This document shows positions 4,532-23,763 of a DNA stretch of 23,946 bases, piece by piece. The position numbers were made by a program, and so were the translations under genes. Source of the stretch: a virus (lineage: Duplodnaviria; Heunggongvirae; Uroviricota; Caudoviricetes); the IMG/VR virus record IMGVR_UViG_2562617151_000005, one strand, 5' to 3'. Positions within the stretch are counted from its first letter, which is position 1, and each line of letters starts with the position of its first letter. Below the pieces are notes generated by a model. That model made no database searches, was not told the DNA's origin, and saw only the letters and a program-made list of their open reading frames with translations.

Positions 4532-4589
4532 AAAAAGGGCGGCAGAGCAGTCACGGAGTAAAACTGATACCGCCAAACGTCACCAGAAA
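4532..4589 (-). ncRNA. dicF: DicF small RNA (ftsZ-targeting) with intrinsic terminator
   Basis: Minus-strand sequence TTTCTGGTGACGTTTGGCGGTATCAGTTTTACTCCGTGACTGCTCTGCCGCCCTTTTT matches my recollection of DicF; GC stem plus U-run at the 3' end; directly upstream of dicB. Confidence 0.8.
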
Positions 4590-6791: not shown

Positions 6792-7200
6792 ACACATCCG
6801 CATGGCGATGAATGTCTGGGCGCATCCGGACGGCGAAAAAGTGCCGGCTGCGAAAATTACCAAAGCGTATTTCGAGCTGGGAATGACGTTCCCGGAACTG
6901 TATGACGACAGCCATCCGGAAGCCCTGGCCCGTAATACCCAGAAAATTTTCCGTTGGCTGGATAAAGACACCCCTGATGCTGTTGAAAAAATGCAGGCTC
7001 TGTTACCGGCGATCGAAAAGGCGATGCCGCCTTTGCTGGTGGCCCGTATGCGCAGCCACAGTTCTGAATATTACCGTGAGATCGTCGAACGGAGGGATCG
7101 GCTGGTGAAGGATGTCGATGATTTTGTTGCGTCAGCGGTTGTTTTGTATGACCAGATGAATCGCGGCGGCCCGGCAGGGAATGCTGTGGTGATGCACTAA
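6775..7200 (+). CDS. YdaT-like protein (CII-position regulator)
   Basis: 141 aa beginning MKIKHEHI, which I recall as the YdaT N-terminus; overlaps the cro-like gene by 17 nt. Confidence 0.6.
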   Translation: MKIKHEHIRMAMNVWAHPDGEKVPAAKITKAYFELGMTFPELYDDSHPEALARNTQKIFRWLDKDTPDAVEKMQALLPAIEKAMPPLLVARMRSHSSEYYREIVERRDRLVKDVDDFVASAVVLYDQMNRGGPAGNAVVMH

Positions 7201-7207
7201 AAGCACG

Positions 7208-8182
7208 GTGTTCGGGGGTTTTATGAGCAGCAAGCTTCATGGTCTTGTCTGGGAAGGGTGCGCCTTCACCGGCATGATCTTATCCAGGGTGGCGGTTATG
7301 GCCCGTCTTGCAGACTACAGCAATGACGAGGGCGTGTCATGGCCTGCCATTGAAACTATCCGGCGTCAGATCGGTGCAAGAAGTGAATCCACAGTGAAAT
7401 CGGCTATTGCAGAACTGGCGAAAGAGGGCTGGCTGACGAAGGAAGAGCGTAAGGTCGGTGGGCGTAATGTAAGCAATATCTATCGGCTTAATGTGGAAAA
7501 ACTCGAAGCAGCTGCGGCGGCGCGTGAGTCATATAAACCGAAAAGAAAAATTAGCCCGGCAAAAAATGACCCGTTAACAGTTGACCCGTCAAATATTGCC
7601 CCCTCAACGGTTGACCCGTCAAATTTTGATGGATCAACTGTTGATAAAAAACTGCCGATTAGGGGGCCGATGATTGACCCCGATCCGTCAGTATTAAAAC
7701 CTGATCCGTCAGATAAAAGATCTTCTTGTCCGGACGCTTCGCAACCGGACCCGCAGACGGCTGAACAGGATTTTTTAACCCGACACCCTGACGCGGTTGT
7801 GTTCAGTGCGAAAAAACGCCAGTGGGGAAGTCAGGAAGATTTGGTGTGCGCACAGTGGATCTGGGGACGAATCGTGAGTCTTTACGAGCAGGCGGCCAGC
7901 TATGATGGCGAGATCACTAGACCGAAAGAACCCAACTGGACAGCATGGGCCAATGACGTTCGCACAATGCGGATGCTGGATGGCAGAACTCACAGACAAA
8001 TTTGTGAAATGTTTGGGCGTCTCCAGCGGGATTCGTTCTGGGTAAAAAACATCATGAGTCCGGCAAAACTCCGGGAAAAATGGGATGAACTGGTTATCCG
8101 CCTGGGGCGTTCGCCTGCGCAGCGTTGCGTGAATCACATTTCTGAACCGGACACTGAAATTCCGCCGGGCTTCAGGGGGTAA
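7208..8182 (+). CDS. Replication initiation protein (lambda O-like; N-terminal winged-helix, internal iteron-encoded repeat)
   Basis: 324 aa; N-terminal HTH-like region; peptide repeat TVDPSN encoded by DNA iterons; position after cro/cII-like genes. Confidence 0.7.
   Translation: MFGGFMSSKLHGLVWEGCAFTGMILSRVAVMARLADYSNDEGVSWPAIETIRRQIGARSESTVKSAIAELAKEGWLTKEERKVGGRNVSNIYRLNVEKLEAAAAARESYKPKRKISPAKNDPLTVDPSNIAPSTVDPSNFDGSTVDKKLPIRGPMIDPDPSVLKPDPSDKRSSCPDASQPDPQTAEQDFLTRHPDAVVFSAKKRQWGSQEDLVCAQWIWGRIVSLYEQAASYDGEITRPKEPNWTAWANDVRTMRMLDGRTHRQICEMFGRLQRDSFWVKNIMSPAKLREKWDELVIRLGRSPAQRCVNHISEPDTEIPPGFRG
7567..7714. repeat. Iteron cluster, candidate replication origin inside the O-like gene
   Basis: TGACCCGTCAAAT perfect at 7582-7594 and 7612-7624 (30-bp spacing), degenerate copies at 7567-7579, 7675-7691 and 7702-7714, with an A-rich stretch between; analogous to lambda ori inside O. 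Confidence 0.55.
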
Positions 8183-8326
8183 GTGTTAATTTCTGGTCAT
8201 GAGGTAATTTTCAGGAGGGCTTGTGGCAAAAGTTTTTACACAAGAAGAGCGGGAAAAAATTAAAGGGCAGGTTGTTGAACTCGTACGCCAGAGTGGGCGC
8301 GAGACGTTACGACAACTGGAAACTAA

Positions 8327-9522
<1,196 letters not shown>

Positions 9523-10036
9523 CTAATACTGGGGCAACAAGATATCTGATGAGCGTTCTGGCCAGAGAGCTGGTTGCCAGTGGCGATGTATACAACTCTG
9601 GTTACGGGTTATTCCCGTCTGAACAGGCGCGTAAGGACTGGCAAAATGCCCGTAAAAAGCTCTCAAGGGCAAAGCTGAAGAAACCATCTGCGGTTGATCC
9701 GGACCTTATCTGGTCATTACCTGACGGAGAAATACGTCGCTACGACAGGCGTCAGAACATAATCTGTCGCGAGTGCCGGAAGAGTGAAGTTATGCAGCGC
9801 ATATTGTCGTTTTATCAGGGTGATGTTCGGTATTTATTGAAGTGACGAGATTAAAGTGCATTAGTTCAGATGCAAATTGACATTTTGTGGCACAGGGTAG
9901 AGCTAGCGTGGTTGTCCGCTTTGTGCCAATAGCGGACATTGCTGGCTCATGGTATGTTAGTTTAAGGAGGCAGGTTATGCCCTGTATTTCGCTGTGGTAT
10001 AATAGTTGCGCAATTGATACAAGGGAGCGTTACATC

Positions 10037-10999
10037 GTGAAAATTGTTTTCGAGGTTAATGGAAAGAAAGTTCCACTAAAATCTTTAAAATACATAAGCA
10101 AAAAAGATCAACTCGAAGTAATGAAAAACTGGTTCTTTGAAAACTTTGAAGATCCGGCAAATGCTTGTCCGTATGAAAGTAGAGAAGGTGGCTATGCTTA
10201 CATATATGGCGGGCCGTATGATGCGAGCGAAGAACTACAATCCATCTTCGGTCAATATGTTAAATCTGAGTATATTGAGGAATTAGTAGATGAATTACAA
10301 ACACAATGTTTTGACTGGTCTGGAAACTCAAATAATATAGATGATTGGTACGATGATGATATCTACGACGCTGTAACGTCTTCCGGTAATCCGTATTTAA
10401 AATTCATTGATAATATCGATAAAATAAAAAAACTTGCAAAAGATAAAACTGAACAACAGCAAAAAAACCACTTGCTTAGTTTGCTCTACACGAATGTTAT
10501 TACAGCTTTGGAAACGCTTTATGTTGAGCTATTCATTAATTCTATAGAGAAAGATGATGTCTACATAGCCAATTGTATAGAAAAAGGTAAGACTGAATTT
10601 AAAGTAAGCAAAGATATTGCTGCGTTGCCTTTCAAGGGTGAACCCATCGAGAAAATTAGGGGAGAGCTAATCAGGTCAATCAAGGAACACTTGATCAGTG
10701 CAAGCTGGCATAGCACTAAAAAGGTAATCGACCGCTATGAAGCTACATTCGATATAAAAGTACAAAAAGACTGTCCGATAGAAGCTATTGAATTGGCAAC
10801 CCTCAATCGAAATCACTTAGTGCATCGTGGTGGAAAGGATAAAGAAGGGAACCTCGTAGTGATTACAGACCAGGATCTTGAAACGCTGATTGAAAATGCA
10901 TCGAACCTGGCAATTATGCTCTACAACAGTTTAAATGTAGCAACGAATAAAACCACCATTTTGCAACCAGATGACAAACCGTTCATTCATGAATTTTAA
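10037..10999 (+). CDS. Hypothetical protein A of AT-rich cassette (about 320 aa) with C-terminal HEPN-like Rx4H motif
   Basis: Long ORF; proposed GTG start at 10037 preceded by AGGGA; TTGACA at 9878-9883 upstream; motif LNRNHLVHRGG near C-terminus; markedly AT-rich by eye. Confidence 0.6.
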   Translation: MKIVFEVNGKKVPLKSLKYISKKDQLEVMKNWFFENFEDPANACPYESREGGYAYIYGGPYDASEELQSIFGQYVKSEYIEELVDELQTQCFDWSGNSNNIDDWYDDDIYDAVTSSGNPYLKFIDNIDKIKKLAKDKTEQQQKNHLLSLLYTNVITALETLYVELFINSIEKDDVYIANCIEKGKTEFKVSKDIAALPFKGEPIEKIRGELIRSIKEHLISASWHSTKKVIDRYEATFDIKVQKDCPIEAIELATLNRNHLVHRGGKDKEGNLVVITDQDLETLIENASNLAIMLYNSLNVATNKTTILQPDDKPFIHEF

Positions 11000-11014
11000 T
11001 AGCGCAGGTCATAC

Positions 11015-12016
11015 ATGGATATTCGCACACGAAAGACAAAATTTTTAGAGTCGTTAGATTCAACTGAAGTGATACGCAAAGCAGTAAGTCTCGCTATAGA
11101 TTGCATTATTGATAATCATAATAGTAATGAAGATACCCCCTTAGTTATTACCAGCTATGATGATCTCTGTAGAATCCAGGTGCTAAATTATGTACAGGAG
11201 TTTTGCGAAGCTGCATTCCCTGATATGGATGAATATTACTTTAGTCCTAACATACTTCGCATCAACGGCAAGACTAGTGAAGAAGCTTGTATTAACTTAA
11301 TTAAACTCTTAAGAAGTACAAAAGGCATGCTATTCTGGTCCGATGCCCCATCGTGGTTCGCTAGCCTCCCCGACGGATTATTCCATGTTGTTAACATTGA
11401 TCAAAAAATCGTTACTCGCGGCCTTAATAAGAAAAACTCTAAGCCGACAATAATCAATAAAGATTACAGTGTAGATACACTACTATCAGAGCTATTTTTG
11501 AATGGCGCACACATGGAGCAACCCAACGTACACAACGTTTCTGAGGGAAACATGAAGTTCTATGATGAATGCCATGCTGGATTAATCAGACCAATACCCG
11601 CTCCAATAGGCGCGTCATACGATGAAGAGATCACAATTAATTCTCCAGATTGGCAAAAGCTCGCGTGTGTAGCTTTACGCCGCTATCAGTCGAAGGAATG
11701 TCATGACGGAATGCAATGGGATACAACCGATCATGGTTGGACTGATGTAATCGCGTATCCATTCGTCGAAGAAATACAATCAATGGATAATAGTGGTTAT
11801 CGACAATGTTTAGTTGGGCTGGTCACAATAAACAATTCAAATGCAAATTCTCCGTACCTATCTACCGTTTGGATACATCTATTTTATCGCAGGAGAGGGT
11901 TATTAAGTAAGTTATGGCCAAAATTACAAGAGTTATATGGAAGTAACTTCGAAATTGAGCGACCTAATGAAAATATGAAAGCATTTCTGAAAAGTGCGAA
12001 ACACGCAGATTACTAA
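11015..12016 (+). CDS. Hypothetical protein B of AT-rich cassette (333 aa)
   Basis: ORF 15 nt downstream of gene A on the same strand; AT-rich; no Walker A or other recognisable motif. Confidence 0.6.
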   Translation: MDIRTRKTKFLESLDSTEVIRKAVSLAIDCIIDNHNSNEDTPLVITSYDDLCRIQVLNYVQEFCEAAFPDMDEYYFSPNILRINGKTSEEACINLIKLLRSTKGMLFWSDAPSWFASLPDGLFHVVNIDQKIVTRGLNKKNSKPTIINKDYSVDTLLSELFLNGAHMEQPNVHNVSEGNMKFYDECHAGLIRPIPAPIGASYDEEITINSPDWQKLACVALRRYQSKECHDGMQWDTTDHGWTDVIAYPFVEEIQSMDNSGYRQCLVGLVTINNSNANSPYLSTVWIHLFYRRRGLLSKLWPKLQELYGSNFEIERPNENMKAFLKSAKHADY

Positions 12017-12332
12017 TTTATGAATCAGTCTGTGGAGTTAGGGTTGGTGTGAACAAGTAGGGTAAGAGCCTCAACGTGATGCTATGCCGACCTGCTCCCT
12101 GAGAATTCACACAGAAGGCTGCTAGCAATGTCCGCAGATCGCTCAAAGCGGACTAGAAGGTTAGCTTGCGTCGGACTTGGCGTATTTAAAGAAGTGCTGG
12201 TGGTGACTGGTTGTTGTGTTCCATTTCTACAGAACAAAATCACAGAAACTATACCCAATAGTTATATTGAATCAATGATGAGACAGCCTCATATTTATCA
12301 GAACTGGTGTACGTCCAATACAGGAGGTTGTC

Positions 12333-12422
12333 GTGCTGGTTCTCAAATGTGCGCTAGCTATTGCGGCTGTAATGGCAATTTATTGTCTTGCTGTTGTTCT
12401 TACGGATCGCCTTTCTGATTGA
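12333..12422 (+). CDS. Candidate small hydrophobic peptide (29 aa, single predicted TM helix)
   Basis: SD AGGAGG at 12322-12327, 5 nt before GTG 12333; translation VLVLKCALAIAAVMAIYCLAVVLTDRLSD; not in the six-frame track because below the length cut-off. Confidence 0.3.
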   Translation: MLVLKCALAIAAVMAIYCLAVVLTDRLSD

Positions 12423-17163: not shown

Positions 17164-17239
17164 GGCCCTTTAGCTCAGTGGTGAGAGCGAGCGACTCATA
17201 ATCGCCAGGTCGCTGGTTCAAATCCAGCAAGGGCCACCA
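17164..17239 (+). tRNA. tRNA with CAU anticodon, Ile2-like (ileX/ileZ type) rather than Met
   Basis: Hand-folded cloverleaf: acceptor GGCCCTT/AAGGGCC, D-stem GCTC/GAGC, anticodon loop CTCATAA, T-loop TTCAAAT, encoded CCA; resembles E. coli ileX from memory. Confidence 0.8.
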
Positions 17240-17246
17240 TCACATA

Positions 17247-17323
17247 CCGCCATTAGCTCATCAGGAAAGAGCGCCAGCCTTCGAAGCTGGTTGCGCGGAG
17301 TTCGGGTCCCCGAAGGCGGTCCA
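17247..17323 (+). tRNA. tRNA-Arg (UCG) with atypical T-arm
   Basis: Hand-fold: acceptor CCGCCAT/AAGGCGG (one A-A mismatch), D-stem GCTC/GAGC, anticodon stem CCAGC/GCTGG, loop CTTCGAA, T-loop TTCGGGT with one T-stem mismatch, encoded CCA. Confidence 0.55.
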
Positions 17324-17336
17324 TTATCTGTATCCT

Positions 17337-17413
17337 GCGTTGTTAGCTCAGCCGGACAGAGCAATTGCCTTCTAAGCAATCGGTCACTGGTTCGAATCCA
17401 GTACAACGCGCCA
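17337..17413 (+). tRNA. tRNA-Arg (UCU)
   Basis: Acceptor GCGTTGT/ACAACGC, D-stem GCTC/GAGC, anticodon loop CTTCTAA, T-loop TTCGAAT, encoded CCA. Confidence 0.85.
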
Positions 17414-17458: not shown

Positions 17459-17672
17459 CTCACAATTCAGGCGGTTGACTGTTGTCTGGTTTGCGGGGAG
17501 TTTGTTAAAAGAAACTGGCATGGTGAATCCCCCTGTGCGGAGGGGCAATCAGCGAGTAGGTATATGGGATAATCGCGGATTCAGGTGCTGGTACTGAATT
17601 CACCGGGAGGCACCCGGCACCATGCAATGGCACATAGCGCCACTCTCCAGCCCCTCTCCGGAGGGGCTTTTC
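17459..17672 (+). other. Structured module A (about 215 bp), candidate sRNA or regulatory leader ending in an intrinsic terminator
   Basis: Shares blocks with module B: CTCACAATTCAG, TTGAC, TTTGTTAAAA, CATGGTGAATCCCCCTGNGCGGAGGGGC, CACCGGGAGGCACCCGGCACCATG, and terminator GCCCCTC-TCCG-GAGGGGC plus T-run. Confidence 0.4.
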
Positions 17673-17926
17673 TGTGCCGGATACATCACAGTTTCTGGAA
17701 CCTTAGGTACTACAGTATCAGTCAGGGTGCTATATTTTCAGATGTGATGAAAGCCTGTCAGCAGGCAGGGCGTATCGGAAATGACCCAGTAGAGAAAACG
17801 TTGACTCAGATACCGGTGCTGAGTTACCGGGAAACCGGCATCACATGACCGCTATCCTTCCAGGCCCATCCGCTCCGGTGGGCCTTTTTACTGCAGAAAA
17901 CAGGTTCCCCGTTAAATGCTATGTTG

Positions 17927-18160
17927 CTCACAATTCAGTAAGTTGACAGTTGCCTGTCAGACTGGGCATTTGTTAAAAAAATTTCGCATGGTGAATCCCC
18001 CTGAGCGGAGGGGCGACTGGTGACGGTATAATCTCTGATTATCAAAACGAGAATGACGCGGGTTTAGTGGCACCGGGCTGAACTCACCGGGAGGCACCCG
18101 GCACCATGTGCATGATGATACAGATACGCGGCTTTAGCCCCTCTCCGGAGGGGCTTTCTT
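17927..18160 (+). other. Structured module B, paralogue of module A with a TTGACA -35-like hexamer
   Basis: Same conserved blocks in the same order as module A; identical terminator hairpin at 18137-18154 followed by T-rich tract. Confidence 0.4.
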
Positions 18161-18166
18161 ATGGAC

Positions 18167-18388: not shown

Positions 18389-19423
18389 ATGGCATTTAAA
18401 CACTATGACGTGGTCAGGGCGGCATCGCCGTCAGACCTTGCGAAACGACTGACACAAAAACTGAAGGAGGGCTGGCAGCCGTTTGGTAGTCCGGTGGCCA
18501 TAACCCCTTATACCCTGATGCAGGCGATTGCAGCAGAAGGTGATGTGGTCGTCAGTGGTGCAACTGAGCCGGAGTGGTACTACGTCATCGTACTGGCCGG
18601 GCAATCCAATGCCATGGCTTACGGTGAAGGGCTTCCGCTTCCGGATTCATACGATGCGCCCCATCCGCGCATTAAGCAACTGGCCCGTCGTAACACAGTG
18701 ACTCCCGGTGGTGAAGTATGCGTATTTAACGACATCATTCCTGCTGACCATTGTCTGCATGATGTTCAGGATATGAGTACGATTAACCATCCCCGGGCTG
18801 ACCTGAGCAAAGGGCAGTACGGCTGTGTCGGACAGGGCTTACATATTGCCAAAAAACTGCTTCCGTATATCCCTAATAATGCGGGGATCCTGCTGGTACC
18901 ATGCTGTCGTGGTGGTTCGGCATTCACCCAGGGCACGGAGGGGACATTCAGCGAGTCCACGGGAGCCAGTCAGGATTCGGCTCGCTGGGGAGTGGGTAAG
19001 CCGTTATATCAGGATCTGCTTTTCCGCACGAAGGCAGCATTGCAGAAAAACCCGAAAAACGTTTTGCTGGCGATATGCTGGATGCAGGGGGAATTCGATA
19101 TGACGAATGCCAGTTACGCCCAGCAGCCAGCAGCATTTCTTGCAATGGTACAGCAGTTCCGTGCTGACCTTGCCGGGCTGGCAGCGCAGTGTCACGGTGG
19201 AAGTCCGGCATCAGTCCCCTGGATTTGTGGCGACACGACATACGCGTGGAAACAAGAACACGGTACGCAATATGAAGTGGTATATGGTGCATATAAAGGT
19301 AAAGAATCCCAGCAGATTTATTTTGTTCCCTTTATGACCGATGGTAGCGGAGTTAATACACCGACAAACAACCCGTCAGAAGATCCTGATACCTGCAGGA
19401 GTACATCAGGACGCAGTGCTTAA
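18389..19423 (+). CDS. nanS: NanS-like 9-O-acetyl sialate esterase (SGNH hydrolase) of the prophage nanS-p type
   Basis: 344 aa; SD GGGAGG upstream; GQSN motif (VLAGQSNAMAYGEG) typical of SGNH/SASA esterases; N-terminus MAFKHYDVVRAASP... resembles YjhS/NanS from memory. Confidence 0.75.
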   Translation: MAFKHYDVVRAASPSDLAKRLTQKLKEGWQPFGSPVAITPYTLMQAIAAEGDVVVSGATEPEWYYVIVLAGQSNAMAYGEGLPLPDSYDAPHPRIKQLARRNTVTPGGEVCVFNDIIPADHCLHDVQDMSTINHPRADLSKGQYGCVGQGLHIAKKLLPYIPNNAGILLVPCCRGGSAFTQGTEGTFSESTGASQDSARWGVGKPLYQDLLFRTKAALQKNPKNVLLAICWMQGEFDMTNASYAQQPAAFLAMVQQFRADLAGLAAQCHGGSPASVPWICGDTTYAWKQEHGTQYEVVYGAYKGKESQQIYFVPFMTDGSGVNTPTNNPSEDPDTCRSTSGRSA

Positions 19424-19468
19424 AATAATTTTAATTTCACTGAAATTTAATACGTGACTTTCAGGAAA

Positions 19469-19494
19469 ATGCCTCGCAGATGCGGGGCATTTTT
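19469..19494 (+). terminator. Intrinsic terminator downstream of nanS-like gene
   Basis: ATGCCTCGCA-GA-TGCGGGGCAT (one mismatch) followed by TTTT. Confidence 0.5.
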
Positions 19495-19844
19495 GTACAG
19501 GTATTTCACCGCGCACCGCAGTGCACTCAACCACGTCGAACCAAACCCTTTGGAATGAGCCTTTGAGTAGTCAGTTAGTGCTGGTGAGCCTTGACGGGCT
19601 GATCTCCTATGCAGCAAAGGTTCATCTCAAAGTAAGGCGAACGCTATGACAAACCAAGATTCTATAGACCTATCTGATCTTCGTGGAATGGTCAGTTTTC
19701 CAGACAAAAGGTAATCACCATAGTCGTATGGCTATGAATCTTGTTGCTGCAGATAAGCATTTTGTGATTGAAGTGGTCAAATCTCTCAAATGCAGTAAAA
19801 TGCAGTGCGCTATAATTCAATAACGGAGGGAGTAAGGAGAAGTC

Positions 19845-20465
19845 ATGAAAGATCAAGATGTTAGGTTCGCGGTGCATCATAAGCTTTTGAAAGAATCGCA
19901 TTTAGATCCAGACTGCCTTGTGGTCGATGAATTTTCCATATCCCTTGGCGCCAGTAGAGCAGACATTGCTGTAATAAATGGTGTTATACACGGGTACGAG
20001 CTCAAAAGTGAATATGACTCTTTGGAGCGTTTGCCTCTTCAAATCAAGCATTATTCTTCTGTAATGGACAAGGTTACTCTTGTCGTAGCTGAGAAACATC
20101 TTGAGGGAGCATTAAAGTTAATCCCAGGTTGGTGGGGCGTTAAAACGGTTTCTGTTGGGCCAAAAGGCGCCATTCTTATAAAGCACATGCGTGGAGAAAA
20201 GCTTAATCGAAACCATGACACATTGATGCTCGCTCAATTGCTTTGGAAAGATGAATGTATCGACGTACTTGAACGATGGGGCTATTCCAAAGGAATCAAA
20301 AGCAAGCCCCGATTTGAGTTATGGAATATTATTGCGGAAAATATTCCAATAGCGAATCTCAGGCTTGAAGTCAGAACAGCCTTAAAGAAACGCGTAGGCT
20401 GGAAAGTTAAGGCTTGGCAGGCTGAGTCTGCGCCAACCAATAAAGCTGTCTCACGACTAACGTAA
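19845..20465 (+). CDS. Hypothetical protein (206 aa) with PD-(D/E)xK nuclease-like motif
   Basis: SD AAGGAG and TATAAT-like -10 upstream; motif ...RADIAVINGVIHGYELKSE... with D-x11-ELK spacing typical of restriction-endonuclease-fold enzymes; AT-rich. Confidence 0.6.
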   Translation: MKDQDVRFAVHHKLLKESHLDPDCLVVDEFSISLGASRADIAVINGVIHGYELKSEYDSLERLPLQIKHYSSVMDKVTLVVAEKHLEGALKLIPGWWGVKTVSVGPKGAILIKHMRGEKLNRNHDTLMLAQLLWKDECIDVLERWGYSKGIKSKPRFELWNIIAENIPIANLRLEVRTALKKRVGWKVKAWQAESAPTNKAVSRLT

Positions 20466-21474
20466 TATGGTGCGTATGTGCAACTTTACGCCATTCTTTA
20501 GAGCCGCCAGATTTGTTAGCGCCTAATGATCTTTGGTAAATGTAATCATCCCCCCAACTAAATTTGGAACCAAAGACTTGATACTCTGGCGAACTAACAA
20601 GGGTAGTACATAAGTTTTTAGTTTGGCCCCATCCATTTCCTTTAACTGCGGTACCTTTTACAAAGATCCATGAGGTATCGTTCGAATATCTCACTGAGAC
20701 ATACTGAGACATGAAGCGTGGGTCTACGCTCGTAATGGTAGAGCTAGCGGTGGGATAATCACTAAAACTTGGCGTTCTTCCATTGCTAAAATTCTGTACT
20801 ACGTACATCCAAAGATCGTATTCATGGCGCGGAATATGATGAACTTGATGTTGCGGTATCCCTGCCTGTGATGCTGGGTATGCGGTTGAAGATAAAATCA
20901 AGTTTCTCCACGGAGCTTGGCCTGATAATGTGTTGACCATGCTTAATGCTTGTTGTTTTAAACTATCAGTTGCGTTTTGAATATCTCCAAAATCAATGAT
21001 TACATCAATTAAACTAGGATGAATATTTAAGTGGTTAACCAGACTTGTGAATTGGTGCCATGTCTGGGGGGTGATAGATATAGCGAGCCCATTGATTAAG
21101 TTGCGTTGAACAGCATGTATATAGTTTGTTGAATATGCGGGAGAAACAACAGGGATAATTTCCTTACCATTTACTCTAGCATCTTGGATACACATATCTA
21201 GAGGATGATGGCGGCTCGAACCATGTTTATCTAAATATTTAACATCCAGCAAAACAGGACGATTGGCTTTCCAGGATGCCGCAAGGTTAATACCGAAGTC
21301 AGATAAGTAAGAACTCAAACTCTTCTTGTAGCATTCGTTTTCATAATCCCAGTCTATGTCTGGAATGGTAATGATCGGAGTAAAACCAGAGAGCGTAGTT
21401 TGATCTAAAAGCATCAGAGATTCATATTCAGCAGGCTTCCATTTCAGCTGTGGATAATATTGATGTTGACTCAT
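20407..21474 (-). CDS. Hypothetical protein (355 aa), convergent partner of the nuclease-like gene
   Basis: Long AT-rich ORF; 3' end overlaps 19845-20465 by 59 nt on the opposite strand; no family recognised. Confidence 0.6.
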   Translation of the reverse strand: MSQHQYYPQLKWKPAEYESLMLLDQTTLSGFTPIITIPDIDWDYENECYKKSLSSYLSDFGINLAASWKANRPVLLDVKYLDKHGSSRHHPLDMCIQDARVNGKEIIPVVSPAYSTNYIHAVQRNLINGLAISITPQTWHQFTSLVNHLNIHPSLIDVIIDFGDIQNATDSLKQQALSMVNTLSGQAPWRNLILSSTAYPASQAGIPQHQVHHIPRHEYDLWMYVVQNFSNGRTPSFSDYPTASSTITSVDPRFMSQYVSVRYSNDTSWIFVKGTAVKGNGWGQTKNLCTTLVSSPEYQVFGSKFSWGDDYIYQRSLGANKSGGSKEWRKVAHTHHITLVVRQLYWLAQTQPAKP

Positions 21475-21697
21475 TAAAACTCCTTAAAATCTTTACTTAT
21501 CCTAAGTATAGTGTTATGGCGTAACGCCAATTGTTTTTATACACTTGAAAACATTGGGAAAAGTTGAGCTATATCTAAATTTACAAAATTGGATGTTATA
21601 GAAATCGAGGTTTCAACTAGGCATGGAACTGCAAAATTTTTAATGCCTGCACGCGAAAGTCGTTGGCGGGTCCTTTCCGGTGATCCAGACCGTTACG

Positions 21698-21709
21698 GGG
21701 CGGCGACCT
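21698..21709 (+). other. cosN, lambda-type 12-nt cohesive end GGGCGGCGACCT with flanking cos sequence
   Basis: CGTTACG|GGGCGGCGACCT|CGCGG followed by TTTTTCACTATTTATGAAAATTTTT, near-identical to the lambda genome left end as I recall it; about 180 bp upstream of Nu1. Confidence 0.7.
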
Positions 21710-21885
21710 CGCGGTTTTTCACTATTTATGAAAATTTTTCAGGGAAAATCGTGTCGGTACTTCTCGAATATAACTTTTTGTTTTTTTTAATATTACATCC
21801 GTAAAGGTCCGACATGAAAGTGTCCGAAAATGCCTTTTTCTGGCGTTTTCATGTCGGGCCTTGTATTTGATAATGGGTTGTTTTC

Positions 21886-22434
21886 ATGAAGGTTAATAAA
21901 AAGAGGCTTGCCGAAATTTTCAACGTGGACCCGCGGACGATTGAACGCTGGCAGTCTCAGGGACTCCCTTGCGCCTCCAAAGGTAGTAAGGGCATTGAAT
22001 CTGTATTTGATACTGCCATGGCAATTCAGTGGTATGCGCAGAGGGAAACTGATATCGAAAACGAAAAGCTCCGCAAAGAACTGGACGATTTGCGTGCGGC
22101 AGCGGAGTCAGATTTACAACCCGGCACCATTGACTATGAACGCTACCGGCTCACAAAAGCGCAGGCAGATGCGCAGGAACTGAAAAATGCCCGTGAAGAC
22201 GGAGTAGTGCTGGAAACTGAACTGTTTACCTTCATTCTGCAACGTGTGGCACAGGAGATTTCGGGGATACTTGTGCGTGTGCCGTTGACATTACAGCGTA
22301 AATATCCGGACATTTCACCATCACACCTTGATGTGGTGAAAACTGAAATCGCGAAAGCCTCCAATGTTGCAGCTAAGGCCGGTGAAAACGTGGGCGGGTG
22401 GATCGATGATTTCAGACGCGCAGAAGGCAGCTAA
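21886..22434 (+). CDS. nu1: Terminase small subunit (lambda Nu1-like)
   Basis: 182 aa [28 protein letters not shown]...[47 protein letters not shown], closely parallel to lambda Nu1. Confidence 0.85.
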
Positions 22435-23179: not shown

Positions 23180-23763
23180 TGGCATTCAGAATGAGTGAAC
23201 AACCACGGACCATAAAAATTTATAATCTGCTGGCCGGAACTAATGAATTTATTGGTGAAGGTGATGCATATATTCCGCCTCATACAGGTCTGCCAGCAAA
23301 CAGTACCGATATTGCACCACCAGATATTCCTGCTGGCTTTGTGGCTGTTTTCAACAGTGATGAGGCATCGTGGCATCTCGTTGAAGACCATCGGGGTAAA
23401 ACGGTTTATGACGTAGCGTCAGGGGACGAGTTATTTATTTCTGAACTCGGTCCGTTACCGGAAAATGTTACCTGGTTATCGCCGGAAGGGGAGTTTCAGA
23501 AGTGGAACGGCACAGCCTGGGTGAAGGATACGGAAGCAGAAAAACTGTTCCGGATCCGGGAGGCGGAAGAAACAAAAAACAACCTGATGCAGGTAGCCAG
23601 TGAGCATATTGCGCCGCTTCAGGATGCTGCAGATCTGGAAATTGCAACGGAGGAAGAAACCTCATTGCTGGAAGCCTGGAAAAAGTATCGGGTGTTGCTG
23701 AACCGTGTTGATACATCAACTGCACCTGATATTGAGTGGCCTACGAACCCTGTCAGGGAGTAA
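23179..23763 (+). CDS. tfa: Tail fibre assembly protein (Tfa)
   Basis: 194 aa [39 protein letters not shown]... recognised as the lambdoid Tfa family; TAATG overlap with upstream stop. Confidence 0.8.

What the first reader, a model, noticed from the sequence alone, without database searches (positions are those of the whole stretch)
10037..12016. AT-rich two-gene operon between replication module and hok: candidate undescribed defence/abortive-infection cassette
Two co-directional ORFs (about 320 and 333 aa, 15-nt gap) are strikingly more AT-rich than the surrounding prophage and have their own promoter-like region (TTGACA at 9878-9883). Gene A ends with a HEPN-like Rx4H motif (LNRNHLVHRGG), common in abortive-infection RNases. 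Gene B has no Walker A or other motif I recognise. The cassette sits in the nin-type moron hotspot next to a hok toxin and directly downstream of an IS5 insertion. I cannot match either protein to a named defence family from memory.
Basis: partly seen in the sequence, partly recalled or inferred. Interest (0 to 1): 0.8.

Follow-up and report, generated by a model that had tools for sequence, protein, structure and literature searches.

The report
Published HEPN anti-phage cassette DS-33
The two AT-rich genes are real and are an anti-phage defence cassette, but it has already been published and tested (system DS-33, 2026): the first gene, a HEPN ribonuclease-type protein, does the protecting, and the second, an acetyltransferase, is not needed.

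Summary
Two co-directional genes (10037-10999, 320 aa; 11015-12016, 333 aa; 15-nt gap) form the lowest-GC 2 kb of the window, and both are under purifying selection.

Both proteins are 100% identical to DS-33A and DS-33B of DeWeirdt et al. (Science 2026, PMC13092281). That paper cloned the operon with its native promoter and found 10^2- to 10^6-fold protection against T7, T3, Bas67 and Bas26. Deleting the HEPN gene or mutating R258A abolished protection. Deleting the GNAT gene kept it, or slightly raised it.

My comparative genomics agrees. A is a solo gene in most lineages, B-only cassettes exist, and there is no conserved partner.

Three points are new here:
- The cassette is a discrete 2240-bp unit (9914-12153) bounded by inverted hairpin repeats.
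- It carries its own extended -10 promoter.
- It occurs in prophages, IncF plasmids and a relaxase-bearing Aeromonas mobile element.

Verdict: already known. The RNA target, the trigger and the role of GNAT remain open.

The parts
9914..12153 (+). Whole mobile cassette, hairpin to hairpin (2240 nt)
   Evidence: Homology to an IncF plasmid (L162, 99.8%) and to a metagenome contig (L122, 95.7%) runs exactly 9913/9914-12153. The flanks outside differ in the window, L162, L122 and L004, and in L146, where the hairpin stems themselves are diverged. Phage Evi backbone homology stops at 9940 and resumes at 12127.
9914..9937 (.). Left terminal hairpin GTCCGCTTTGTGCCAATAGCGGAC
   Evidence: It is one arm of inverted repeat I1 (9901-9946 / 12121-12166, 46 nt, 76% complementary). 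The pattern GTCCGC-N8-16-GCGGAC occurs 3 times in the window against 0.01 expected. As DNA it folds at -9.3 kcal/mol, z = -2.7. It is present upstream of gene A in about 40 loci.
9995..10003 (+). Predicted extended -10 promoter element TGgTATAAT of the cassette
   Evidence: Read directly from the sequence. TG(G/A)TA(T/C)AAT is conserved in the Serratia and Aeromonas cassettes and in the B-only cassettes L108 and L130. It was not called by the consensus scan because the -35 is poor. This is inferred, not demonstrated.
10037..10999 (+). Gene A = DS-33A, 320 aa (GTG start; alternative in-frame ATG at 9977 gives 340 aa)
   Evidence: 100% identical to the DS-33A sequence in Table S8 of PMC13092281. 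RefSeq WP_014639476.1. The GTG start is conserved in Aeromonas, Serratia and Yersinia.
10112..10312 (+). HEPN/RES N-terminal domain 1 (residues about 26-92 of gene A)
   Evidence: Pfam PF18870 scores 22.2 bits against a cut-off of 27.4 for the window protein. The stronger relatives reach 28.7-29.4 bits (P0116, L070, L072, P0117). Invariant residues include W, F, P, E-G-G and G-G-P.
10391..10960 (+). HEPN domain of gene A (residues about 119-308), RiboL-PSP type
10808..10825 (+). Rx4H catalytic motif (R258 ... H263)
   Evidence: R, H and the following R are invariant in 38 homologues down to 26% identity. R258A abolishes defence in the published data.
11015..12016 (+). Gene B = DS-33B, 333 aa
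   Evidence: 100% identical to the DS-33B sequence (WP_000354965.1) in Table S8. AlphaFold model pLDDT 89.5.
11015..11464 (+). N-terminal alpha/beta domain of gene B (residues 1 to about 150), fold unassigned
   Evidence: The secondary structure is alpha/beta. The motif AIDC(L/I)I(E/D)N is conserved. There is no Pfam, NCBIfam or PDB sequence hit. The full-length family is small, with about a dozen full-length representatives at 50% identity.
11552..12013 (+). GNAT acetyltransferase domain of gene B (residues about 180-333)
12130..12153 (.). Right terminal hairpin GTCCGCAGATCGCTCAAAGCGGAC, an inverted copy of the left one
   Evidence: As DNA it folds at -6.2 kcal/mol, z = -1.65.

Best explanation
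This is defence system DS-33, carried as a self-contained 2.2-kb moron in the replication-to-hok slot of a lambdoid prophage. It is transcribed from its own promoter (inferred).

Gene A is the working part. Its C-terminal HEPN domain is a metal-independent ribonuclease of the Rx4-6H type. Its N-terminal HEPN/RES-NTD1 domain is also found joined to a PIN nuclease and to other, unassigned C-terminal regions. NTD1 most likely keeps the nuclease silent and senses infection. On infection by T7-like and some other phages, the nuclease is released and cuts an essential RNA, which stops phage production. By analogy with other HEPN defence proteins, that RNA is most likely tRNA anticodon loops or mRNA.

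Gene B is a GNAT-fold acetyltransferase that rides in the same operon. It is not required for this protection. It is either a mild brake on A or has a separate job.

What is shown and what is inferred:
- Shown by published experiments on identical sequences: protection, the need for gene A and for R258, and the dispensability of B.
- Shown here: the folds, the conserved catalytic residues, the solo distribution of A and B, and the cassette boundaries.
- Inferred: RNase activity, the RNA target, the sensor role of NTD1, abortive infection, and the promoter.
For: Identity with DS-33:
- Both proteins are 100% identical to DS-33A/B (against the sequences printed).
- Table S6 lists working id GNAT as DS-33, marked defensive.

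Published plaque data from Table S7, two replicates, log10 protection:
- Wild type: T7 3.8/2.6, T3 3.3/2.4, Bas67 4.0/2.0, Bas26 5.0/5.9, T5 0.8/0.1.
- HEPN gene deleted: -0.5 to 0.5.
- R258A: -0.3 to 0.8.
- GNAT gene deleted: T7 4.8/4.3, T3 3.3/3.3, Bas67 4.0/3.3, Bas26 5.0/4.9.

- PF18735 and PF18870 are found in homologues. Of the proteins scanned, PF18735 passes its gathering score in P0060, P0101 and P0108, and PF18870 passes in P0116, L070, L072 and P0117.
- R258, H263 and R264 are invariant.
- NTD1 also occurs fused to a PIN domain and to other C-terminal regions.
- Among 80 genome loci with an A relative, B is adjacent only in the three loci with 98-100% identity, and no neighbour is conserved.
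- B-only cassettes keep the leader and lack exactly gene A.
- Purifying selection acts on both genes.

Precedent: HepS, a solo HEPN anticodon nuclease in the same kind of lambdoid accessory slot, is inactive until it is triggered by a phage protein (PMC13043305).
Against: - No RNase assay, RNA target, trigger or MOI-dependence has been reported for DS-33, so abortive infection and the target are extrapolations.
- The window protein itself falls below Pfam gathering scores: PF18870 scores 22.2 against 27.4, and there is no PF18735 hit at E<=1.
- PADLOC v2 gives no hit.
- In 209 of 209 E. coli genomes that carry either gene, A and B travel together. B is also under purifying selection. That sits uneasily with B being irrelevant.
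- The published mutant data are two replicates in a supplementary table and are not discussed in the paper.
Confidence: 0.85

Rival explanations
1. Toxin-antitoxin-like pair. The GNAT (B) holds the HEPN nuclease (A) in check by acetylating it or its substrate, in the way MntA AMPylates HepT. Infection relieves this brake.
For: - The operon is tight, with a 15-nt gap conserved from E. coli to Aeromonas.
- A and B co-occur in 209/209 E. coli genomes.
- The GNAT fold of B is nearest to protein lysine acetyltransferases such as ATAT, ESCO1, HAT1 and MYST.
- Deleting B gave equal or higher protection in 9 of 10 comparisons and higher protection in 6.
Against: - The B-deletion strain was viable and was kept in the strain list. 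No unrestrained toxicity was noted.
- A relatives at 54-76% identity and below lack B and lack any conserved neighbour.
- B-only cassettes exist.
- B relatives at 55% identity or less are never next to an A relative.
Confidence: 0.15
2. Two independent modules stacked in one cassette. B is a separate defence or counter-defence gene (for example against other phages or plasmids, or protecting the prophage's own induction), and its activity was not sampled by the five phages used in the mutant tests.
For: - B occurs alone with the same leader and promoter (L108, L109, L130).
- B relatives sit next to other defence-type genes: an AAA_13 ATPase, an Abi_2 HEPN, a HerA-like protein and a SUKH protein.
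- The GNAT half has stand-alone relatives of about 160 aa in phage-like contigs, directly after primase/helicase genes.
- The same slot in phage Evi carries an unrelated GNAT.
Against: - B alone (HEPN gene deleted) gave no protection against T7, T3, T5, Bas67 or Bas26.
- DefensePredictor scored B low, at log-odds 1.08 against 9.45 for A.
- No phenotype of any kind is known for B.
Confidence: 0.3
3. B is a passenger with no current function, and the cassette is in effect a single-gene system.
For: - Defence is intact without B.
- A is solo in most lineages.
- One E. coli strain has an IS1 inserted in B (H68).
Against: - dN/dS of B is 0.2-0.4 over dS up to 0.46.
- B is kept full-length in 209 E. 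coli genomes and across at least six genera.
- 39 columns are invariant in the family alignment, and further GNAT motif positions are conserved.
Confidence: 0.1

Closest known systems
DS-33 (working id 'GNAT'), DeWeirdt et al., DefensePredictor, Science 2026 (PMC13092281)
   Same: Both proteins are identical residue for residue. The operon has the same length (1980 nt from the start of A to the stop of B). The RefSeq protein for A is the same (WP_014639476.1).
   Different: Nothing differs at the protein level. The window copy sits in a prophage with an IS5 upstream. The paper gives no mechanism, domain dissection or mobility analysis for DS-33, and does not discuss the mutant data held in its Table S7.
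PD-T4-2 (Vassallo et al. 2022), subunit B
   Same: It has a RiboL-PSP-type HEPN domain (PF18735), and it is the best remote match that the DS-33 authors list for DS-33A (55% coverage, probability 96.1). PF18735 is assigned to PD-T4-2 in PMC10952713.
   Different: PD-T4-2 pairs its HEPN protein with a DUF262 protein, whereas DS-33 has no DUF262 and carries NTD1 plus a GNAT neighbour. PADLOC v2, which by my recollection includes PD-T4-2 models, gave no PD-T4-2 match to either window protein.
HepS of Salmonella prophage Gifsy-1 (Sargen et al., Nature 2026, PMC13043305)
   Same: It is a solo HEPN defence protein in the accessory slot after the replication genes of a lambdoid prophage. It has no conserved partner and its Rx4-6H motif is required. 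It is a model for a nuclease that stays silent until a phage protein triggers it, and it cleaves tRNA anticodon loops.
   Different: HepS is under 250 aa, its motif is at R100-H105, and it has no NTD1 domain. Sequence relatedness to gene A was not tested here. The trigger and target of DS-33A are unknown.
HepT/MntA type VII toxin-antitoxin systems
   Different: The partner here is a GNAT, not a minimal nucleotidyltransferase. A is 320 aa with an extra N-terminal domain. The partner is dispensable, and its loss does not appear to be lethal.
GNAT toxins of type II TA systems (TacT, AtaT, ItaT, KacT)
   Same: They share the GNAT fold and a mobile-element location.
   Different: Those toxins are about 160-175 aa and are paired with an RHH/DUF1778 antitoxin (my knowledge of these families). 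B is 333 aa with a novel N-terminal domain, and no such antitoxin is adjacent.

Membership tests
DS-33 (DefensePredictor 2026) | Protein sequences of DS-33A and DS-33B | tested here: met
   320/320 and 333/333 residues are identical to the sequences printed in Table S8.
DS-33 (DefensePredictor 2026) | Two co-directional genes in one transcription unit, A then B | tested here: met
   The gap is 15 nt. The 1980-nt span equals the published cds_start to cds_end, 6922-8901.
DS-33 (DefensePredictor 2026) | Protection against phage when expressed from the native promoter | not testable with these tools
   Published for identical sequences: 10^2- to 10^6-fold against T7, T3, Bas67 and Bas26.
HEPN superfamily | Rx4-6H motif, conserved across the family | tested here: met
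   The motif is R258-N-H-L-V-H263. R, H and the next R are invariant in 38 sequences.
HEPN superfamily | All-alpha up-down helical HEPN fold | tested here: met
HEPN superfamily | Ribonuclease activity | not testable with these tools
   The only functional evidence is that R258A abolishes defence.
RiboL-PSP-HEPN (Pfam PF18735) | Score at or above Pfam's gathering cut-off (28.4 bits) | tested here: inconclusive
   The window protein has no hit at E<=1. Homologues at 31-58% identity score 28.5-36.1 bits.
HEPN/RES-NTD1 (Pfam PF18870) | Score at or above the gathering cut-off (27.4 bits) | tested here: inconclusive
   The window protein scores 22.2 bits, E 1.9e-4, over residues 26-92. The more distant relatives P0116, L070, L072 and P0117 score 27.7-29.4 bits, while P0060 and P0101 fall just short at 26.2-26.8. 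Many homologue clusters carry a precomputed PF18870 hit.
GNAT acetyltransferases | GNAT fold (mixed beta sheet with the beta4-alpha3 acetyl-CoA site) | tested here: met
GNAT acetyltransferases | Pfam PF00583 at or above its cut-off (20.7 bits) | tested here: inconclusive
   The window protein scores 13.9 bits. Homologues score 22.0-27.0 bits.
GNAT acetyltransferases | Acetyl-CoA pyrophosphate-binding motif (Q/R)-x-x-G-x-(G/A) and the catalytic Tyr of motif B | tested here: inconclusive
   R292 is invariant, but the motif reads RRRGLL, and the Gly is absent in some close homologues. Y308-G309 are invariant. The mapping of these residues onto the GNAT motifs is my inference from the alignment.
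HepT/MntA type VII TA | Adjacent MNT nucleotidyltransferase antitoxin | tested here: not met
   The neighbour is a GNAT, and there is no nucleotidyltransferase hit.
PD-T4-2 | DUF262 partner protein and a match to the PD-T4-2 models | tested here: not met
   PADLOC gave no PD-T4-2 match to either protein. No DUF262 is present in the cassette. The DUF262 composition of PD-T4-2 is taken from PMC10952713.
GNAT/RHH type II TA (TacAT-like) | RHH/DUF1778 antitoxin gene adjacent to a GNAT of about 170 aa | tested here: not met
   There is no such ORF next to B, and B is 333 aa.

The most novel reading that the evidence does not exclude
Two linked ideas are not excluded.

(1) DS-33B may be a built-in attenuator that acetylates DS-33A or its RNA or protein target. 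That would be an acetylation-based counterpart of the AMPylation control seen in HepT/MntA. The hint is the equal-or-stronger protection when B is deleted.

(2) The cassette may belong to a class of transposase-less defence modules bounded by inverted hairpins of about 24-30 nt. These modules would be swapped between prophages, plasmids and integrative elements by recombination at the hairpins. Phage Evi carries a different cargo between the same hairpins.
Probability: 0.2. Interest if true: 0.55.

Novelty: already known. Interest (0 to 1): 0.27.

Why it matters
As a defence system it adds nothing new, because identical genes were cloned, tested and mutated in a 2026 paper. Three things are worth keeping.

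- The published mutant data and the comparative genomics here agree that the HEPN protein alone is the system. The DS-33 operon is therefore better described as a solo NTD1-HEPN defence gene plus an accessory GNAT.
- The role of a conserved, selected acetyltransferase that is not needed for defence is an open and directly testable question.
- The exact hairpin-to-hairpin boundaries, seen in several unrelated contexts, suggest a defined way in which such morons move. That would help explain how prophage defence hotspots are filled.

Tried and rejected
- Family libraries. PADLOC v2 and NCBIfam gave no meaningful hit for either protein. PHROGs matched only unannotated families. PDB sequence searches with profiles of both families found nothing credible.
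Rejected: there is no -10 and it lies in phage backbone.
- The 340-aa start at 9977. Not favoured: homologues start at the GTG/MKIVF position, and residues 1-17 of the 340-aa model are disordered. It is not excluded, because the Shine-Dalgarno sequence is strong.
- Obligate A-B pairing. Rejected from 80 A loci and about 75 B loci.
- A conserved alternative partner of A or B. None was found by clustering the neighbours.
- Defence-island enrichment around A relatives. Only anecdotal: integrases, SIR2, type I S subunits, Fic, FRG, AbiJ-NTD3 and RmrA appear among 150 neighbours, alongside housekeeping genes. No statistical test was done.
- The acetyltransferase in the same slot of phage Evi. It is unrelated to B by BLASTP.
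- The 320-aa E. coli variant P0148. It is a fusion or truncation that keeps only residues 133-333 of B, and says nothing about the N-terminal domain.
- The fold of B's N-terminal domain. It could not be assigned, because GNAT hits dominate both fold searches and the afdb50 library was unavailable.
- Isolated phage genomes. None carry the cassette; they share only its flanks.
- Target-site duplications at the cassette ends. None are obvious.
- Later literature on DS-33. None found.
Full report
**Observation.** The window is part of a lambdoid prophage of E. coli. The same region, without the IS5, lies next to ompW in strain S88 and also occurs in ATCC 11775.
Gene A is read from the GTG at 10037 to 10999 (320 aa) and gene B is 11015-12016 (333 aa). 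They are separated by 15 nt.
- The cassette is 38.5% GC against 48.6% for the rest of the window, and it is the lowest-GC 2-kb stretch of the window.
- The motif LNRNHLVHRGG is there (R258...H263).
- Upstream, an IS5 (transposase 8395-9375) interrupts the DUF977 gene. By my mapping that gene is 8223-8342 plus 9525-9845.
- Downstream lie sok and mok/hok.
It has no acceptable -10, was not called by the scan, and lies in sequence shared with phage Evi.

**What the proteins are: gene A.**
- It gives a sub-threshold Pfam hit to HEPN/RES N-terminal domain 1.
- Homologues down to about 30% identity carry PF18870 together with PF18735 (RiboL-PSP-HEPN), and some pass the gathering scores.
- In an alignment of 38 homologues, R258, H263 and R264 are invariant. 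So are a Glu in the first HEPN helix and a W-H pair.
- NTD1 also occurs joined to a PIN domain and to other, unassigned C-terminal regions. This matches the description by Anantharaman et al. 2013 of an N-terminal module shared by HEPN and RES toxins.

**What the proteins are: gene B.**
- It models confidently (pLDDT 89.5).
- Homologues pass PF00583.
- Residues 1 to about 150 form an alpha/beta domain with a conserved AIDC(L/I)I(E/D)N helix. I could not assign this domain to a fold.
- An exhaustive profile search shows that the full-length family is small. The GNAT half, in contrast, has many stand-alone relatives of about 160 aa. Three of the four that I looked up sit in phage-like contigs just after primase/helicase-type genes.

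**Distribution and context.**
- In complete E. coli genomes, A and B are each found in 209 of 5426 genomes, nearly always together and at 99% identity or more.
- The pair is also found on IncF and other plasmids, in Serratia, and in an Aeromonas mobile element that encodes a relaxase, next to a SIR2 gene.
- Outside this close clade the pair dissolves. Among 80 genome loci with an A relative, B is adjacent only in the three loci with 98-100% identity. Relatives at 54-76% identity already lack it, and no other neighbour is conserved.
- B relatives at 55% identity or less are never beside an A relative. Their neighbours vary: an AAA_13 ATPase, a divergent Abi_2 HEPN, a HerA-like protein and a SUKH protein.
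- Three B loci at 86% identity keep the cassette leader (9914 to about 10009) and the last 60 nt of gene A, and lack exactly the rest of gene A.
- Both genes are under purifying selection, with dN/dS 0.06-0.17 for A and 0.20-0.41 for B. The GTG start of A is conserved across genera.

**Cassette anatomy.**
- Homology to an IncF plasmid and to a metagenome contig runs exactly from 9913/9914 to 12153. The sequences outside those ends differ in the window, the IncF plasmid L162, L122 and Serratia L004, and also in L146, where the hairpin stems themselves are diverged.
- The ends are inverted copies of a hairpin, GTCCGC-N12-GCGGAC, followed on the inside by ATTGCT.
- Phage Evi holds a different cargo in the same slot: an XRE-cupin regulator and an unrelated GNAT. 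That cargo is bounded by the same hairpins. The outer flanks match the window's backbone and the inner flanks do not.
- Phage Tritos has an FRG-domain protein in the slot.
- Inside the cassette, an extended -10 (TGgTATAAT, 9995-10003) is conserved in the Serratia, Aeromonas and B-only versions. This fits a transcript starting just before the GTG of gene A. It is a prediction only.

**Literature.** A text search for the RefSeq accession led to the supplements of DeWeirdt et al., 'DefensePredictor' (Science 2026, PMC13092281).
- Table S6 lists working id GNAT as DS-33, made of WP_014639476.1 and WP_000354965.1, and marks it defensive.
- The sequences printed in Table S8 are identical to the window's A and B.
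- Table S7 holds two replicates, in log10 protection:
  - Wild type: T7 3.8/2.6, T3 3.3/2.4, Bas67 4.0/2.0, Bas26 5.0/5.9, and little or nothing against T5.
  - HEPN gene deleted: about zero.
  - R258A: about zero.
  - GNAT gene deleted: T7 4.8/4.3, T3 3.3/3.3, Bas67 4.0/3.3, Bas26 5.0/4.9.
- The main text never discusses DS-33. It says only that four validated systems contain HEPN domains.
- The authors' own remote-homology table gives PD-T4-2_B (RiboL-PSP-HEPN) as the nearest known protein for A and nothing for B.
- I found no later paper on DS-33.

**How it most likely works.** Experiment and comparative genomics point the same way: gene A is the system. I take it to be a normally silent HEPN ribonuclease, with NTD1 coupling infection to activation.
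- The nearest worked example is HepS of Gifsy-1. HepS is a solo HEPN protein in the same kind of prophage slot. It is inactive as a tetramer until it binds a phage tail-tip protein, and it then cuts tRNA anticodon loops.
- For DS-33A, the RNase activity, the target, the trigger and whether infected cells die are all inferred, not shown.
- Gene B is conserved and selected but dispensable. Protection was equal or stronger without it (higher in 6 of 10 comparisons, lower in 1). That is a hint, no more, that it damps A.
- The alternatives are that B has a separate function that was not sampled, or that it is a passenger.
- A classical toxin-antitoxin relationship is unlikely. The B deletion is viable, and A lives without B in most lineages.

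**Comparison and novelty.**
- Membership in DS-33 is established by sequence identity.
- Membership in the HEPN superfamily and in the GNAT fold class is met by fold and motif. The window proteins themselves fall below the Pfam cut-offs, which their homologues pass.
- It is not a HepT/MntA system, a PD-T4-2 system or a TacAT-like pair, because the defining partners are absent.
- The finding is therefore already known as a defence system.
- Three things are not in the paper: the solo nature of A across bacteria, the B-only cassettes, and the hairpin-bounded mobile unit with its own promoter. These are modest additions. The first two mainly explain the published mutant result.

**Scores.**
- Interest is 0.27.
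- The most novel reading still open is acetylation-based damping of a HEPN effector, together with hairpin-mediated cassette exchange. I give it probability 0.2 and interest 0.55 if true.

Noticed in passing
window 9914-9937 and 12130-12153 (IR 9901-9946 / 12121-12166); L002 4065-4088 and 5483-5506; L162 6878-9117: The cassette is bounded by inverted copies of a hairpin of about 24 nt (GTCCGC-N12-GCGGAC). Homology to a plasmid and to a metagenome contig ends exactly at the outer edges of the hairpins. Phage Evi carries a different cargo between the same hairpins. There is no transposase and no obvious target duplication.
   Followed up: partly
L108 5817-7075, L109 5878-7188, L130 1422-2682: These are B-only versions of the cassette (B 86% identical). 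They keep the leader and promoter and the last 60 nt of gene A, and lack exactly the rest of gene A.
   Followed up: yes
Table S7 of PMC13092281: In the published but undiscussed data, deleting the GNAT gene gave equal or higher protection than wild type. It was higher in 6 of 10 comparisons, with T7 up 10- to 50-fold, and lower in one (Bas26, replicate B).
   Followed up: partly
window about 8343-9524 (transposase ORF 8395-9375): An IS5 is inserted in the DUF977 gene of the replication module (gene parts 8223-8342 and 9525-9845), about 390 nt upstream of the cassette. It is absent in S88 and ATCC 11775, so it is incidental to the cassette.
   Followed up: partly
window 9964-9979: A strong Shine-Dalgarno sequence (AAGGAGG) and an ATG lie in frame with gene A, 60 nt upstream of the conserved GTG start. 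The PHROG family profile includes this 20-aa extension. It is conserved in the E. coli, Serratia and B-only cassettes but not in Aeromonas.
   Followed up: partly
window 12128-12418: A 96-aa Cys-rich ORF lies between the cassette and hok, starting at the right hairpin. It is conserved in related loci (L001, L113, L138, L143) but is not annotated in RefSeq. It may not be a gene.
   Followed up: no
L169 1734-3068 (phage Tritos); L002 4059-5272 (phage Evi): The same DUF977-to-hokD slot holds an FRG-domain protein in Tritos and an XRE-cupin regulator plus an Acetyltransf_10 GNAT in Evi. It is a variable accessory-gene hotspot.
   Followed up: partly
L083 7212-8293 (Aeromonas caviae chromosome, element with a relaxase): The A-B cassette sits next to a SIR2 gene and a cREC_REC gene on the opposite strand, which looks like another defence pair.
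   Followed up: no
L163, L164, L166: Stand-alone GNATs of about 160 aa, related to the C-terminal half of B, lie directly after large replication-type genes in phage-like contigs: DUF3987, DUF3631 and an unannotated 802-aa protein.
   Followed up: partly
window 19000-22000: A second AT-rich stretch (GC 0.38-0.44) lies in the region corresponding to the lysis and late-gene part of the prophage. It was not examined.
   Followed up: no
window 4537-4588 (-), 17164-17410, 17489-18166, 23522-23720: Rfam matches elsewhere in the window: DicF RNA, three tRNA genes, two copies of STnc100, and IS009 RNA.
   Followed up: no
NZ_CP012631.1 2718772-2720550 (E. coli SF-173, hit H68); L113 5644-6606: Damaged copies of gene B exist. 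One has an IS1 insertion. Another is a 320-aa fusion that keeps only residues 133-333 of B behind a DUF1376 gene, with gene A absent.
   Followed up: no
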